Assembly (NCBI GenBank): GCA_044892525.1
Contig: CM097885.1
Location: 35,962,001 to 36,026,000, forward strand
Reading direction: 5' to 3'
Source of the DNA: Schmidtea polychroa
Taxonomy: Eukaryota
DNA length: 64,000 nt
Positions 25,370-45,106 of the stretch are shown piece after piece. Each line of letters opens with the position of its first letter. Position 1 is the stretch's first letter. A model generated the notes under the pieces. The model saw nothing but the letters and a program-made list of their open reading frames with translations, ran no database searches and had not been told where the DNA came from. The position numbers and the translations under genes are program-made.

Positions 25370-26667
25370 AGTAGATGGATTGGGCACCGCTGGCACAGGG
25401 CACCGCTAGCACAGTACCCCCCCCCCCGTCGGTAAGATTTTCAAAAATATTCTAAGTCTAAAAGTACATTTTTTTTTCAAGGTCAAATTTAAACAAAGAC
25501 ATATGACTCATCAAGGTCATTGAAACAAAGACCATGAGTCATCCTATGACTCATAAAATTTTTCAAGGTCATTTAAACAAAGACCATGACTCATCCGATG
25601 ACCCATCAAGGTCATTTTCAAGGTCATATGACTCATAATATGACTCATCAAGGTCAAAAAAAATTTCTCAAGGTCATTTAAACAAAGACCATGACTCATC
25701 AAGGTCATTTTCAAGGTCGTATGACTCATAGTATGACTCATTTGACCTTGAAAATTTTTTTTCAAGGTCATATGACTCATCCTATGACTCACCAAGGCCA
25801 TTGAAACAAAGACCATGACTCATAGTATGACTCATTTGACCTTGAAAAATTTTTTTCAAGGTCATATGACTCATCCTATGACTCATCAAGGTCATTGAAA
25901 CAAAGACCATGACTCATAGTATGACTCATTTGACCTTGAAAAATTTTTTTCAAAGTCATATGACTCATCCTATGACTCATCAAGGTCATTTTCAAGGTCA
26001 TATGACTCATAGTATGACTCATTCGACCTTGAAAAATTTTTCCCAAGGTCATATGACTCATCCTATGACTCATCAAGGTCATTCTCAAGGTCATATGACT
26101 CATCCGATGACTCATCAAAATTTTCAAGGTCATTTTCAAGGTCATCTGAGTCATCCTATGACTCATCAAGGTCATTTTCAAGGTCACGTGACTCATCCAA
26201 GGTCATTCCCAAGGTCATATGAGTCATCGCGATGACTCATCAAGGTCATATTATTATTTTTAAAAATATTATTATTTTTATTATTATTATTTTTAAAAAT
26301 ATTATTATTTTTAATTTTTTCAAAGTTCCCGCCAACGAAAATTAATAATCGATAGCTCATTTTAAAGCTCAATCCAAGACCTTTCGAATGAGCTATATAT
26401 CTTGTTACTATTATTATTATTATTATTATTATTATTATTATTATTATTATTATTATTATTATTATTAATATTATTATTATTATTATTATTATTATTATTA
26501 TTAATCTATATACTCCGAGTCTATATACTCCTAGTCTATCCGACAAAATATTTTGTCCCCCTATGGGTAATGCTCACAAGGGTACTGGTCACGCTCAACA
26601 AATCAACAAAACATACATTTATTTAAACAATAAAATAATGTAAAATTAACAAAGGTAAACTAAATAT
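25370..26667 (+). repeat. Left TIR (~1.3 kb) with an internal TGACTCAT/TCAAGGTCA array and (ATT)n
   Basis: Reverse complement of 43926-45106 apart from repeat-unit copy number and a few substitutions. Confidence 0.95.
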
Positions 26668-27294
26668 ATATAGTATGATATTCATTAATCAGTGTTGAAC
26701 AGGCTTGACACTTGCGAACATTCTTCTCATGACACTTAGAACAAACAATTACGTGACCACACGGTAAATACAAAACCGAAACTCGATTTTCTTTACAAAT
26801 TGAACAAGTTAAATATCTTTTCTTAACATCTTTCAATTTTTTCGTTAGCTTATTTTCAATCAAATCGGCTTTCGCTATCCATTCATAAATCAATCTACTA
26901 TATCCCTGTTTCAACCTTAAAAACATACAACTCCAAAAGTATTCATTCAGTGAATCGTTGTTTACTGCTATTTTTTCTAAGTACATTAAATAACAAGATA
27001 ACTTTAAAATGGATTTCTCATAATTAAATAAATCAAACAAATATTCAATAGAGGAATGTTTGAAAATTTTTAAAATATTTATGAGTTGCTTATCACTGTA
27101 AGTATCATGATTATTTATAAAATCTTCAAGTGTATTGTTAAAAAATGTCAATGAAATTTCAGAATAGGCTGGACTTAATTTTTCCTTATTTCTAGTAGGA
27201 CTTCCTTGCTATAAATGACATATAAAAAAAATTGGCAAAATAATAAAGTTACCAAATGTGTTACACATTCATCGGTTTTATTTGTATAAATCAT
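26660..27294 (-). CDS. IAP/MDM2-type C3HC4 RING finger protein, putative E3 ligase; exons 27294-27253 and 27208-26660; ~196 aa
   Basis: CSICKENRVSVLYLPCGHVIVCSKC...KCQAC; a 44-nt GT-AG intron joins an upstream ATG exon in frame; CCAAT and TATA lie upstream. Confidence 0.85.
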
Positions 27295-27607
27295 TATTAA
27301 TAACTAAATTACTTTTGTTTTTACATTTATAAAAATTGTGATAACCAATCAAAATAGAGCTTTCAAAATGTAACCATCAAATGTATAACAATAATAAGCA
27401 TGACTAGTACCCTTTGCAACCTGTTTAAAGTTTTATTATTATTATTATTATTATTATTAATATTATTATTATTATTATTATTAGTATTATTATTATTATT
27501 ATTATTATTATTATTATTATTATTATTATTATTATTATTATTATTATTATTAATATTATTATTATTATTATTATTATTAATATTATTATTATTAATATTA
27601 TTTCATT

Positions 27608-27830
27608 GATATAGCTGCAGACTATATATAAAAATATAGCTGCATGCCCACTGCAGACTATATATAAAAATATAGCTGCATGCCCACTGCAGACTATATA
27701 TAAAAAATATAGCTGCATGCCCACTGCAGACTATATATAAAAAAAATATAGCTACATGCCCACTGCAGACTATATATAAAAAACATATAGCTGCATGCTC
27801 ACTGCAGACTATATATAAAAAACATATAAA
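27608..27830. repeat. ~33-bp tandem repeat (atagctgcatgcccactgcagactatatataaaaa)
   Basis: About 6 units, one of them partial; the core is shared with the 32.4-33.1 kb array. Confidence 0.9.
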
Positions 27831-28053
27831 AGTCACCATTAAATACTTATAAAATAAACTTAAAAATTATAATAAAACAAACTTAAAAATTCGAAAAATA
27901 TCTGATTACAAAATTTTATTGAATATATACAAATTTTAAATCAATATATTAATACAAGTTTTTATACATTTTTTTTTATAAATCAAAATAAAAAGTTTTT
28001 TTCAATATATACAAGTTTTTTGATCAAAAGTTTCTGTACAATTCTGAGTTGCC

Positions 28054-42778: not shown

Positions 42779-42846
42779 TAAATCTTAGTGTTTGTAAATT
42801 TATTTAAAATTTTATTTAAAAATCAAACAAAATAACTATATAAATT

Positions 42847-43361
42847 TTATTTAAAAAAACGACATAAAACATATAAAATAGCAACACCTGTTGCAAGTTT
42901 TAAATAGTTTTTAAATTGGATTTTTTGCTGATCTAATTCTTTTGCATTTCTGGCGAGTCGATTCAGCACGCCCCATCCGCCATTGGCTTCAATCCATGGC
43001 TGAAACTTTGACTTGATTATCTAGAAAATATATATTAATAAAATATAGATTATAAAAGTATTACTTCTTGAGACCACTGATAATAGTGCTCAGAATCCAA
43101 TAGGCTTTTTTCAATTATTATCTTCATATAAGCGAACCCTACTAATATTCGGGTCCACTTCATCTCCTCGTCGCATAAGCAATTAAATATTCTATTAAAA
43201 TAGAATTTCTTTGTTTCGAGGGAATCGGAATTGAGGACGTCCTCATAATCAATGTGATTACCTTCTATAATCTTTTCGGTCCGATCGACCAGGAAAATTA
43301 GGCTTTCCATAATATTCTTGTTGATGAGTTCTCTGCACATATTTTCCATTAAATTAGACAT
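42847..43361 (-). CDS. Bcl-2 family protein (viral Bcl-2); exons 43361-43065 and 43020-42847; 156 aa
   Basis: BH1-like LCDEEMKWTRILVGFAY, BH2 FQPWIEANGGW and tail anchor LATGVAILYVLCRFFK, joined by a 44-nt phase-0 GT-AG intron. Confidence 0.85.
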
Positions 43362-43472
43362 TTTTTTTTTTACAATATTTTAAAATATGATGTTTTATTT
43401 ATACTAATACCGGATGATTTTGATTGGTTGATAGACTATAAATGTAAAAGAAAGGTTTTGATTTGATACACC

Positions 43473-43970
43473 ATGAAAACTATATTCATATTGCTAATTA
43501 TTATAACGAGTGTGTGCTCACACAATACAACAATAACAGTGGAGTCTTTTAATAAATCAATATGTGTTTGTCCGAATACAGCCAAGTTGATGGATATTTT
43601 ATATATTCTCGACAAACCAAAATGGTCAAAGCATCCAGGAAAAAGAATATCTCAAAGATTGGAGAATTTAGAAAACAGTTATGAACTATCATTTGAATAT
43701 ATACAAAATATAAAATTTGAATTGATTGATCATATTAAGGTTTTCAATAACTCTATTGTTGAAAATAAAATGAATATGAAAATAATTGATAAGAAGCATG
43801 ATTATTTGTTAAAAAAGATTGAATTATTATTAAGAGAAATTCAAACAATCAAAGGATCAATAGAATCTCTGAAAATCAATTCAACGTTACCAATTTCTAA
43901 CAATATTGCTGCGAATAGTACATCAATATTTAGTTTACCTTTGTTAATTTTACATTATTTTATTGTTTAA
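43473..43970 (+). CDS. Predicted secreted or GPI-anchored coiled-coil glycoprotein
   Basis: Signal peptide MKTIFILLIIITSVCS, five N-x-S/T sequons, heptad-like middle region, and small residues followed by a hydrophobic C-terminus with no cytoplasmic tail. Confidence 0.75.
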   Translation: MKTIFILLIIITSVCSHNTTITVESFNKSICVCPNTAKLMDILYILDKPKWSKHPGKRISQRLENLENSYELSFEYIQNIKFELIDHIKVFNNSIVENKMNMKIIDKKHDYLLKKIELLLREIQTIKGSIESLKINSTLPISNNIAANSTSIFSLPLLILHYFIV

Positions 43971-45106
43971 ATAAATGTATGTTTTGTTGATTTGTTGAGC
44001 GTGACCAGTACCCTTGTGAGCATTACCCATAGGGGGACAAAATATTTTGTCGGATAGACTCGGAGTATATAGATTAATAATAATAATAATAATAATAATA
44101 ATAATAATATTAATAATAATAATAATAATAATAATAATAATAATAATAATAATAATAATAGTAACAAGATATATAGCTCATTCGAAAGGTCTTGGATTGA
44201 GCTTTAAAATGAGCTATCGATTATTAATTTTCGTTGGCGGGAACTTTGAAAAAATTAAAAATAATAATATTTTTAAAAATAATAATAATAAAAATAATAA
44301 TATTTTTAAAAATAATAATATGACCTTGATGAGTCATCGCGATGACTCATATGACCTTGGGAATGACCTTGGATGAGTCACGTGACCTTGAAAATGACCT
44401 TGATGAGTCATAGGATGACTCAGATGACCTTGAAAATGACCTTGAAAATTTTGATGAGTCATCGGATGAGTCATATGACCTTGAGAATGGCCTTGATGAG
44501 TCATAGGATGAGTCATATGACCTTGAAAAAAAATTTTTCAAGGTCGAATGAGTCATACTATGAGTCATATGACCTTGAAAATGACCTTGATGAGTCATAG
44601 GATGAGTCATATGACCGTGAAAAAAATTTTTCAAGGTCAAATGAGTCATACTATGAGTCATGCTCTTTGTTTCAATGACCTTGATGAGTCATAGGATGAG
44701 TCATATGAGCTTGAAAAAAATTTTCAAGGTCAAATGAGTCATACTATGAGTCATACGACCTTGAAAATGACCTTGATGAGTCATGGTCTTTGTTTAAATG
44801 ACCTTGAGAAAATTTTTTTGACCTTGATGAGTCATATTATGAGTCATATGACCTTGAAAATGACCTTGATGAGTCATCGGATGAGTCATGGTCTTTGTTT
44901 AAATGACCTTGAAAAATTTTATGAGTCATAGGATGACTCATGGTCTTTGTTTCAATGACCTTGATGAGTCATATGTCTTTGTTTAAATTTGACCTTGAAA
45001 AAAAAATGTACTTTTAGACTTAGAATATTTTTGAAAATCTTACCGACGGGGGGGGGGGGTACTGTGCTAGCGGTGCCCTGTGCCAGCGGTGCCCAATCCA
45101 TCTACT
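43926..45106 (-). repeat. Right TIR (~1.18 kb)
   Basis: Inverted copy of 25370-26667. Confidence 0.95.

What the first reader, a model, noticed from the sequence alone, without database searches (positions are those of the whole stretch)
25370..45106. Intact, intron-rich Polinton carrying a host-manipulation cassette (Bcl-2, RING E3, TBP-like, GPI protein)
Seen: perfect TSD, near-identical TIRs and open core genes, implying a recent and possibly mobile endogenous virus. I can reconstruct 12 GT-AG introns, ten of them 38-49 nt, in pPolB (6), integrase, protease, RING, Bcl-2 and two accessory genes. Each restores a reading frame or a family motif. Known: Polinton core genes are usually described as largely intronless. 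Inference: this lineage has adopted host-style minimal introns, and its accessory genes suggest a true viral life cycle that controls apoptosis and transcription.
Basis: partly seen in the sequence, partly recalled or inferred. Interest (0 to 1): 0.9.

Follow-up and report, generated by a model that had tools for sequence, protein, structure and literature searches.

The report
Intron-containing Polinton virus-like transposon family
A young, many-copy virus-like transposon (Polinton/Maverick) in an animal genome has twelve ordinary spliceable introns, some in genes usually described as intron-free, so it must rely on the host's splicing machinery and intron-blind gene finders would misread it.

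Summary
Observation confirmed: a 19.7-kb Polinton with a 6-bp TSD, 99%-identical TIRs, open core frames and all 12 GT-AG introns (ten of 38-49 nt). Comparative support is strong. In 30 copies, 34 of 36 distinct leader exons keep frame while intron lengths drift. A second family with a 57%-identical polymerase keeps introns at six of the same sites. Its integrase intron shifts the frame in 8 of 10 copies, so it must be spliced if those copies work. No RNA proof was obtained.

Corrections: the six 'pPolB introns' lie in a 5' leader, two or more arose by exon-intron duplication, and the catalytic body is one frame. Capsids, ATPase and TBP have no introns. Introns are not unique to this lineage: metagenomic relatives carry them at other sites. 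Bcl-2 and IAP homologues are already reported in adintoviruses, the GPI call is weak, and nothing here shows virions or host manipulation.

This scan noted intron-bearing Polintons before, in other genomes and in this one. Papers I saw call Maverick core genes intronless. Verdict: new variant of a known kind.

The parts
25364..25369 (.). left 6-bp target-site duplication
   Evidence: same 6-mer at 45107-45112
25370..26667 (.). left terminal inverted repeat; holds 30 TGA(C/G)TCA (AP-1-type) motifs
26660..27208 (-). IAP-type RING protein, exon 2 (no BIR domain detected)
   Evidence: Pfam zf-C3HC4_3 E 1.5e-9; best PDB hits cIAP/XIAP RING E 3e-9
27209..27252 (-). RING intron, 44 nt, phase 0
   Evidence: 45 and 47 nt from the matching donor in 2 of 4 loci fetched
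27253..27294 (-). RING exon 1
   Evidence: read; start context
28054..32087 (-). pPolB main exon: zinc fingers, endonuclease-VII-like insert, exonuclease and polymerase motifs; no intron
32088..33788 (-). long leader intron, 1701 nt, phase 1, filled with tandem repeats; splits the codon of the first zinc-finger cysteine
   Evidence: donor in 30 of 30 loci; acceptor in 3 of 3 divergent loci that cover it; 559-nt intron at the same codon in family B; motif in homologues
33789..34608 (-). pPolB 5' leader: six exons (189, 99, 99, 99, 63, 46 nt) and five phase-1 introns (33978-34026, 34126-34167, 34267-34308, 34408-34452, 34516-34562); acidic, with repeated SIM-like motif
   Evidence: 141-nt exon+intron tandem unit
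35070..35412 (-). adenain-type maturation protease, exon 2
   Evidence: Pfam Peptidase_C5 E 2e-6
35413..35450 (-). protease intron, 38 nt, phase 2, after a 5-nt coding exon (35451-35455)
   Evidence: 30 of 30 loci; 37 nt in family B; absent in relative L069
35483..36703 (-). probable major capsid protein, no intron
   Evidence: 171 homologues; Pfam DJR-like in 2 of 39 aligned members, best E 0.0014; gene order as in L079, L126; fold not shown
36700..37071 (-). 123-aa basic ORF, unassigned
   Evidence: homologue in L069
37058..38126 (-). probable minor capsid protein, by position only; no intron
   Evidence: homologues at the same place in L079, L107, L126; no family hit
38077..38702 (-). integrase exon 2 with chromodomain
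   Evidence: Pfam rve_3, Chromo
38703..38783 (-). integrase intron, 81 nt, phase 1, an (ATT)n run just after the second catalytic Asp
   Evidence: 72-183 nt, all 3n, in 15 of 16 family-A loci; 91-168 nt, 8 of 10 not 3n, in family B; site continuous in 6 of 6 distant integrases
38784..39171 (-). integrase exon 1
   Evidence: Pfam rve E 8e-6
39233..39766 (-). 177-aa basic ORF, unassigned
39785..40411 (-). A32-type packaging ATPase, no intron
   Evidence: Pfam Pox_A32 E 3e-7
40511..40948 (+). short TBP-like protein, no intron
   Evidence: Pfam TBP E 1.2e-15; PDB TBP E 4e-11; dN/dS 0.03-0.17
41020..41437 (+). accessory gene A, two exons, 49-nt phase-1 intron at 41072-41120
   Evidence: dN/dS 0.09-0.21; no family hit
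41856..42266 (+). accessory gene C, no intron, unassigned
   Evidence: dN/dS about 0.1
42393..42778 (+). accessory gene B, acidic, two exons, 41-nt phase-1 intron at 42415-42455
42847..43361 (-). Bcl-2-like gene: exon 1 (43065-43361, BH1 region), 44-nt phase-0 intron (43021-43064), exon 2 (42847-43020, BH2 and hydrophobic tail)
   Evidence: exon 1: Pfam Bcl-2 E 0.03, PDB A1/Bfl-1 E 0.02-0.05; exon 2: TIGR00865 E 1e-4, Bcl-xL; intron 46 nt in family B
43473..43970 (+). 165-aa protein with signal-peptide-like start, 5 N-glycosylation sequons and a hydrophobic end encoded inside the right TIR; GPI anchor unproven
   Evidence: hydropathy; no family or Atlas hit; dN/dS 0.6-0.7 on 12-14 changes
43926..45106 (.). 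right terminal inverted repeat; 27 TGA(C/G)TCA motifs
45107..45112 (.). right 6-bp target-site duplication

Best explanation
This is one copy of a recently multiplied Polinton/Maverick family whose genes are transcribed in the host nucleus and need the host spliceosome. Shown by sequence: it integrates with a 6-bp TSD, keeps all core genes under purifying selection, and carries 12 introns whose boundaries are conserved while their lengths drift. Inferred: the introns were gained by the element's ancestors inside formerly continuous genes and then copied with the element at each round of spread, not inserted copy by copy afterwards. One of them split the first codons of the polymerase and let a new 5' leader attach; the leader is built from frame-neutral phase-1 exons that duplicate and get replaced freely, giving a variable acidic extension with SUMO-interaction-like motifs. 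The cargo most likely keeps the host cell alive (tail-anchored Bcl-2, IAP-type RING) and drives the element's own promoters (short TBP). Splicing itself, virions and any effect on the host are inferred, not shown.
For: Frame-blind parse of 30 loci: 34 of 36 distinct internal leader exons are 3n (15 of 17 distinct lengths, p 4e-6), 33 distinct introns fall 8/12/13 across the three frame classes, 27 of 30 loci reach the last donor in phase 1 with no stop, and unit number varies from 4 to 8 short introns in loci that parse fully. Family B (39 other matches at 95-96% to window 4400-6650; pPolB 57%, Bcl-2 64%, gene A 51% identical) keeps introns at the integrase, protease, Bcl-2, gene A, gene B and long leader sites with changed lengths, and has an unrelated three-exon leader. 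Its integrase intron is not 3n in 8 of 10 loci where found, of 11 examined. Homologous pPolBs start with a four-ligand Cys/His motif right after Met (P0015, P0018, P0020, L053, L056); here the first Cys exists only across the long junction. Distant integrases are continuous at the intron site (6 of 6) and the L069 protease starts without one. dN/dS below 0.4 for all core genes, TBP, RING, Bcl-2, A and C. Different TSDs in 6 of 8 copies.
Against: No spliced read was seen. Contigs of runs X1 and X2 hold the first leader intron and the protease intron unspliced, but no run is on record as RNA, both look like low-pass DNA, and only 15 of 108 joints were shown, all from the DNA-like run. Three leader introns and the integrase intron are 3n and stop-free in this copy. 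The main polymerase exon has its own Met 18 codons in, so it could be read without the leader. 3 of 30 loci have a broken leader. The Bcl-2 hits are individually weak and the BH1 glycine is replaced. The capsid fold was not confirmed. dN/dS below 1 between copies shows past selection, not present activity.
Confidence: 0.82

Rival explanations
1. The 'introns' are AT-rich insertions and microsatellites that landed in a decaying element and are not spliced.
For: The integrase intron is a pure (ATT)n run, and such runs are everywhere in this genome. Intron-generating transposons insert into dinoflagellate eupolintoviral proviruses mostly after integration (PMC12166617, passages). No spliced read was seen.
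Against: The same sites are shared by independently inserted copies with different TSDs and by a family with a 57%-identical polymerase. Exon indels keep frame and intron indels do not. Flanking exons are under purifying selection. The introns share no common internal sequence except the duplicated leader units.
Confidence: 0.05
2. The short introns are real, but the 5' exon array is a separate small acidic gene and pPolB starts at its own Met in the main exon.
For: Read-through of the last leader exon meets a stop after 10 codons. The main exon has a Met 18 codons in, where several homologues begin (P0001, P0004). The 1701-nt gap is unlike the other introns.
Against: A strong phase-1 donor is kept in 30 of 30 loci and a phase-1 acceptor in 3 of 3. 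Family B has the same junction with a 559-nt intron and a different leader. Only this junction supplies the first cysteine seen in homologues.
Confidence: 0.1
3. One reading: a true virus that forms particles and uses Bcl-2, RING, TBP and a GPI protein to control host apoptosis and transcription.
For: Capsid-module genes are open with dN/dS 0.03-0.35. The capsid module is about 95% identical between families with different polymerases, so modules are exchanged. Bcl-2 has BH1, BH2 and a membrane tail. Planarian polintons are piRNA-repressed and can be de-repressed (PMC8532177, passages).
Against: No evidence of particles or free linear DNA was available. RING and the GPI-like gene were not detected in the family-B copy read. 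The GPI-like tail is the same TIR sequence that serves as the RING 3' end on the other side (and reading). Bcl-2 cargo also occurs in retroelements, so it can be selected without a particle stage.
Confidence: 0.35

Closest known systems
Vertebrate Mavericks (Barreat & Katzourakis 2021, PMC8097293; passages)
   Same: TIRs, 6-bp TSD, pPolB, integrase, ATPase, protease and capsid genes
   Different: That paper reports 'No introns were observed' in intact elements and used intronless ORFs to define intact; here integrase, protease and the pPolB leader are split.
Nematode Mavericks with cargo (Widen et al., 10.1101/2022.07.12.499685; passages)
   Same: Cargo genes with introns carried inside a Maverick
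   Different: There the core genes are called intronless and introns mark captured host genes; here core genes carry them too.
Alpha adintoviruses (Starrett et al. 2021, PMC8502044; sections 3.1, 3.2, 3.4)
   Same: pfam03175-type PolB among homologues (14 of 25 aligned members), rve integrase, adenain, packaging ATPase; Bcl2 and IAP homologues reported; TBP listed in a figure legend for related MELD viruses
   Different: No splicing is mentioned in the main text. The RING gene here lacks BIR domains. OTU domain not tested. Supplements not read.
Introner-bearing eupolintoviral proviruses of dinoflagellates (PMC12166617; passages)
   Same: Intron-type sequences inside full-length Polinton-like proviruses
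   Different: Those are copies of intron-generating transposons, mostly gained after integration and mostly outside coding regions. Here the introns are unrelated to each other, fixed in the family and copied with it.
Adenovirus E2B polymerase mRNA (recalled; lead from note e1-7879951, no paper read)
   Same: A protein-primed polymerase whose first residues come from an upstream exon
   Different: Adenovirus adds a few residues; here the leader is about 200 residues of duplicating exons.

Membership tests
Polinton/Maverick | Long TIRs with AG...CT ends | tested here: met
Polinton/Maverick | 6-bp target-site duplication | tested here: met
   this copy; 6 of 8 others, the other 2 not evaluable
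Polinton/Maverick | Protein-primed family B polymerase | tested here: met
   six motifs; homologues up to 63% identical, many with PF03175; the window protein itself did not hit PF03175
Polinton/Maverick | Retroviral-type integrase | tested here: met
   rve and chromo hits on the two exons
Polinton/Maverick | Packaging ATPase and adenain protease | tested here: met
   Pox_A32 E 3e-7; Peptidase_C5 E 2e-6
Polinton/Maverick | Double and single jelly-roll capsid proteins | tested here: inconclusive
   weak DJR-like hit in 2 of 39 homologues, conserved gene order; single-sequence model unusable (pLDDT 35); no PDB hit
Polinton/Maverick | Intronless core genes (a described trait, not a formal criterion) | tested here: not met
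   integrase, protease and pPolB leader are split; capsids and ATPase are not
Alpha adintovirus | OTU domain N-terminal to a pfam03175 PolB | tested here: inconclusive
   PF03175 in 14 of 25 homologues; no OTU hit in Pfam; no profile-profile test
Polintovirus (particle-forming) | Virions or free-ended linear genome | not testable with these tools
   only contigs were available
U2 spliceosomal intron | GT...AG ends kept while length varies | tested here: met
U2 spliceosomal intron | Removed in RNA | tested here: inconclusive
   no RNA holder on record; joints of the RNA-guess runs not shown
Bcl-2 family | BH1 and BH2 in order, with C-terminal membrane anchor | tested here: met
   exon 1 matches the BH1 region, exon 2 BH2, independently and in order; hydrophobic tail; all scores under the curated cut-offs
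IAP | BIR domain | tested here: not met
   only the RING was detected; call it an IAP-type RING protein
GPI-anchored protein | Signal peptide plus C-terminal GPI signal | tested here: inconclusive
   hydrophobic at both ends; no predictor available; tail lies in the TIR; weak selection signal

The most novel reading that the evidence does not exclude
Polintons of AT-rich invertebrates are nuclear DNA viruses that keep gaining spliceosomal introns in their own core genes, without introners and at different sites in different lineages. They then use phase-1 exon shuffling to evolve a fast-changing SUMO-binding leader on the polymerase, with AP-1-packed terminal repeats and a private TBP forming a stress-triggered, self-driven expression programme. 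That would make them a natural system for watching intron birth and exon shuffling, and would mean ORF-based surveys have missed a whole set of intact elements.
Probability: 0.3. Interest if true: 0.8.

Novelty: new variant of a known kind. Interest (0 to 1): 0.6.

Why it matters
Surveys define intact Mavericks by intronless ORFs (PMC8097293) or long ORF cut-offs (10.1101/2023.08.22.554363), so spliced families are scored as decayed or get wrong protein starts. The element must be expressed in the nucleus through the host spliceosome, which bears on whether and how Polintons move between hosts. Intron gain is rare and hard to study; here intron-bearing and intron-free relatives sit close together, and an (ATT)n run flanked by a short duplicated splice-site motif looks like a new intron. 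With dozens of near-identical copies in a probably experimentally tractable host, each junction is directly testable.

Tried and rejected
RNA test: no RNA holder listed. Four runs were laid on 33645-38700. The DNA-like control X7 crowded the joint table: 15 of 108 joints shown, all X7, none at a predicted intron. X1 and X2 cover spacer DNA too and hold two introns unspliced, so they are probably DNA. X4 has a 15-T loose end at an A-rich integrase site, a hint of oligo-dT cDNA only. Inconclusive; 6 of the 12 introns lay outside the stretch and the long one only partly inside.
Folds: single-sequence models of Bcl-2 exon 1 (pLDDT 52) and the capsid protein (35) were too poor for a fold search, so none was run. 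ESM Atlas gave nothing for the GPI-like protein and gene C. IMG/VR gave no close relative.
A frame-blind intron scan of metagenome loci is noisy (sense/antisense 28/15 in 21 close loci, 32/28 in 60 distant), so only frame-checked cases were counted.
Phase-1 excess: 9 of 12 non-duplicated introns against 48% expected from G at codon position 1, p 0.056; not claimed.
The pPolB tree is the quick tree only; the careful search did not finish, and 59 of 77 rows have no DNA to label.
Kapitonov & Jurka 2006 and the Koonin 2024 review were not held. Passages of PMC12220804, PMC9356565, PMC11296320 and the Halocafeteria preprint held nothing on spliceosomal introns in core genes.
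Full report
1. The observation. The element spans 25370-45106, starts AG, ends CT and is flanked by TGTTTA on both sides. Its TIRs (1298 and 1181 nt) differ by 9 mismatches and 5 gaps over 1179 aligned positions. Pfam identifies an rve integrase with chromodomain, an A32-type ATPase, an adenain protease, a TBP-like protein and a RING protein. The polymerase has all six pPolB motifs and homologues up to 63% identical. The two capsid genes are assigned mainly by position and by a weak DJR-like hit in 2 of 39 homologues; their folds were not confirmed. 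All 12 introns can be placed, ten of them 38-49 nt, GC 8-21%. The other two are an 81-nt (ATT)n run in the integrase and a 1701-nt repeat-filled intron before the main polymerase exon.

2. One correction of anatomy. The catalytic polymerase is a single stop-free frame of 1349 codons. The six 'pPolB introns' separate a leader of six exons upstream of it, and three of those exons are a tandem 141-nt exon-plus-intron unit. Both capsid candidates, the ATPase, TBP, gene C and the GPI-like gene give no sense-strand intron candidate. So three core genes are split, not all.

3. Context. The genome is 781 Mb with four very large contigs. The AT-richness and Bcl-2 domains inside frames of about 3,000 codons, as described for Burro elements (PMC6431247, passages), point to a planarian; that is inference. 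There are at least 22 near-full-length matches at 95-100% for each half of the element (lower bounds) and subfamilies at 89-94%. Of 8 other copies whose ends I fetched, 6 have a matching 6-bp TSD, each different; for 2 the ends were not in the fetched stretch. This is a recent burst of real integration events.

4. Are the introns real? Leader: a frame-blind GT/AG parse of 30 loci gave 34 of 36 distinct internal exons as multiples of three, while 33 distinct introns of 40-52 nt fell 8/12/13 across frame classes. 27 of 30 loci reach the last donor in phase 1 without a stop, 3 are broken, and the number of short introns varies from 4 to 8 in loci that parse fully. Counting distinct lengths only, 15 of 17 exons are 3n (p 4e-6) against 4 of 11 introns. 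Protease: 38 nt in 30 of 30 loci. Integrase: 72-183 nt in 15 of 16 family-A loci, always 3n, which alone is ambiguous. Genes A, B and Bcl-2: kept in 3 of 4 divergent loci, the fourth lacking the region. RING: 45 and 47 nt in 2 of 4 loci, counted from the donor that matches the window's (the script's pattern caught a GT 12 nt earlier); the other 2 loci did not hold the gene.

5. A second family gives the harder test. It has 39 other matches at 95-96% to window 4400-6650. The one copy read shares the capsid/integrase module but has a 57%-identical pPolB. It has introns at the same sites in integrase (145 nt), protease (37), Bcl-2 (46), gene A (45), gene B (41) and before the main polymerase exon (559), plus an unrelated leader with two 47-nt phase-1 introns. 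Its integrase intron was found in 10 of 11 loci and is not 3n in 8, where retention gives a stop within 31-49 codons. Six of 6 distant metagenomic integrases are continuous at this site, and the protease of L069 starts without an intron. Homologous polymerases begin with a Cys-Cys-His-Cys motif just after Met (3 of 120 by a strict pattern; also L053, L056). In both families here the first cysteine codon is completed only across the long junction. I reached this before seeing notes e1-7879957 and e1-7879963, which say the same for other copies in this genome; they are not independent support.

6. RNA. No holder is on record as RNA. The one read-laying run was inconclusive (see Tried and rejected). 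Two probable DNA runs hold two introns unspliced. Splicing is therefore inferred from comparative evidence only.

7. Not one lineage. Among metagenomic relatives, 12 of 14 candidates checked had an open-frame solution, all in phase 1 (one also in phase 0); four lie inside conserved polymerase regions (L061, L066 twice, L085). L053, L054 and L056 show none in the matched region. On a quick pPolB tree the label needs at least three changes (18 labelled rows of 77). With sites that differ between groups, repeated gain is the simplest reading, though losses cannot be excluded. Four notes of this scan report intron-split Polintons in other genomes (unchecked).

8. The cargo. Bcl-2: exon 1 matches the BH1 region (E 0.02-0.05) and exon 2 BH2 (TIGR00865 E 1e-4), in order, followed by a hydrophobic tail; the BH1 glycine is replaced. 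RING: best hits are cIAP and XIAP RINGs, with no BIR. TBP-like: short, dN/dS 0.03-0.17; several late-type genes share a TATAAAC box, but so do two others. GPI-like: signal-peptide-like start, but the hydrophobic tail is TIR sequence that on the other side follows the RING stop, selection is weak (0.6-0.7 on 12-14 changes) and there are no homologues. RING and the GPI-like gene were not detected in the family-B copy. None of this shows particles or an effect on the host.

9. How it most likely works. Host RNA polymerase II transcribes each gene from its own short promoter and the spliceosome removes the introns (inferred). The polymerase copies the element from its ends and the integrase inserts it with a 6-bp duplication (established for the family; TSDs shown here). 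Introns entered formerly continuous genes and spread with the element (inferred from shared sites and intron-free relatives). The leader grows and shrinks by duplication of frame-neutral phase-1 exons (shown); its repeated acidic-hydrophobic motif resembles SUMO-interaction motifs (recalled pattern), a possible nuclear targeting device (guess). Bcl-2 and RING probably protect the host cell during replication (inferred).

10. Against what is known. [quoted passage not shown] Nematode Mavericks: intronless core, intron-bearing cargo (10.1101/2022.07.12.499685, passages). Adintoviruses: Bcl2 and IAP homologues reported, TBP listed for related MELD viruses (PMC8502044, three sections). Dinoflagellate proviruses: introners inside, mostly post-integration (PMC12166617, passages). 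Six full-text searches combining Polinton, Maverick or polintovirus with intron terms listed no paper on family-fixed spliceosomal introns in animal Polinton core genes; I read passages of only some of the listed papers. The library lacks most subscription papers and Repbase entries, two key papers were not held, and I read no supplements, any of which could already annotate such introns.

11. Verdict. Real feature, member of the Polinton/Maverick group, new variant by its spliced core genes and modular leader. The cassette is largely known cargo and the viral life cycle is unproven. Interest 0.6.

Noticed in passing
window 25370-26667 and 43926-45106: The TIRs hold 30 and 27 TGA(C/G)TCA motifs against 1 in the 17 kb between them. 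The motif is the AP-1 consensus (recalled); a stress- or wound-responsive enhancer is a guess.
   Followed up: partly
upstream of the element's genes: TATAAAC precedes the capsid, ATPase and two basic ORFs, but also gene B and the pPolB leader; RING, Bcl-2, the GPI-like gene and gene C have CCAAT plus TATAAA(T/A) (lead from note e1-7879962). A clean early/late split is not shown.
   Followed up: partly
L051/L052 (G000:C3:95566001-95586000): Family B shares the capsid/integrase module at about 95% but has a 57%-identical pPolB, a 62%-identical TBP and Bcl-2 genes near both ends: module swapping. Two family-A subfamilies also carry a strongly diverged minor capsid candidate (dN 0.33).
   Followed up: partly
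L061 1133-1176, L066 291-333 and 706-753, L085 5934-5983: Metagenomic Polintons with 43-50-nt GT-AG introns inside conserved pPolB regions, one in polymerase motif A; L061 and L066 share one site that the window lacks. L062, L070 and L073 have their own 5' micro-exons.
   Followed up: partly
window 38697-38790: The integrase intron is flanked by a duplicated TTTAGGTA motif around an (ATT)n run, as expected if it arose by splice-site duplication with repeat fill-in.
   Followed up: partly
window 330-6900: Decayed Polinton remnant: genes A, B, C and capsid pieces 81-87% identical to the main element, and a frameshifted family-B pPolB. Its gene-A intron has a GC donor.
   Followed up: partly
window 7167-11196: Perfect 1986-nt inverted duplication of a reverse transcriptase plus GIY-YIG element (Penelope-type layout) with one in-frame stop, inside short inverted repeats at 1-193 and 11189-11381.
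   Followed up: partly
window 12047-12967, 14214-14611, 56751-57008: hAT-like transposase remnants; only the last has a Pfam hit (E 0.001).
   Followed up: partly
window 49047-49430 (-): Short frame with a signal-peptide-like stretch and dibasic sites, neuropeptide-precursor-like by eye; no Pfam hit.
   Followed up: no
genome G000: 136 Bcl-2 domain matches: many inside frames of up to about 3,050 codons (Burro-like) and many with one internal TAG, possibly more intron-split copies.
   Followed up: no
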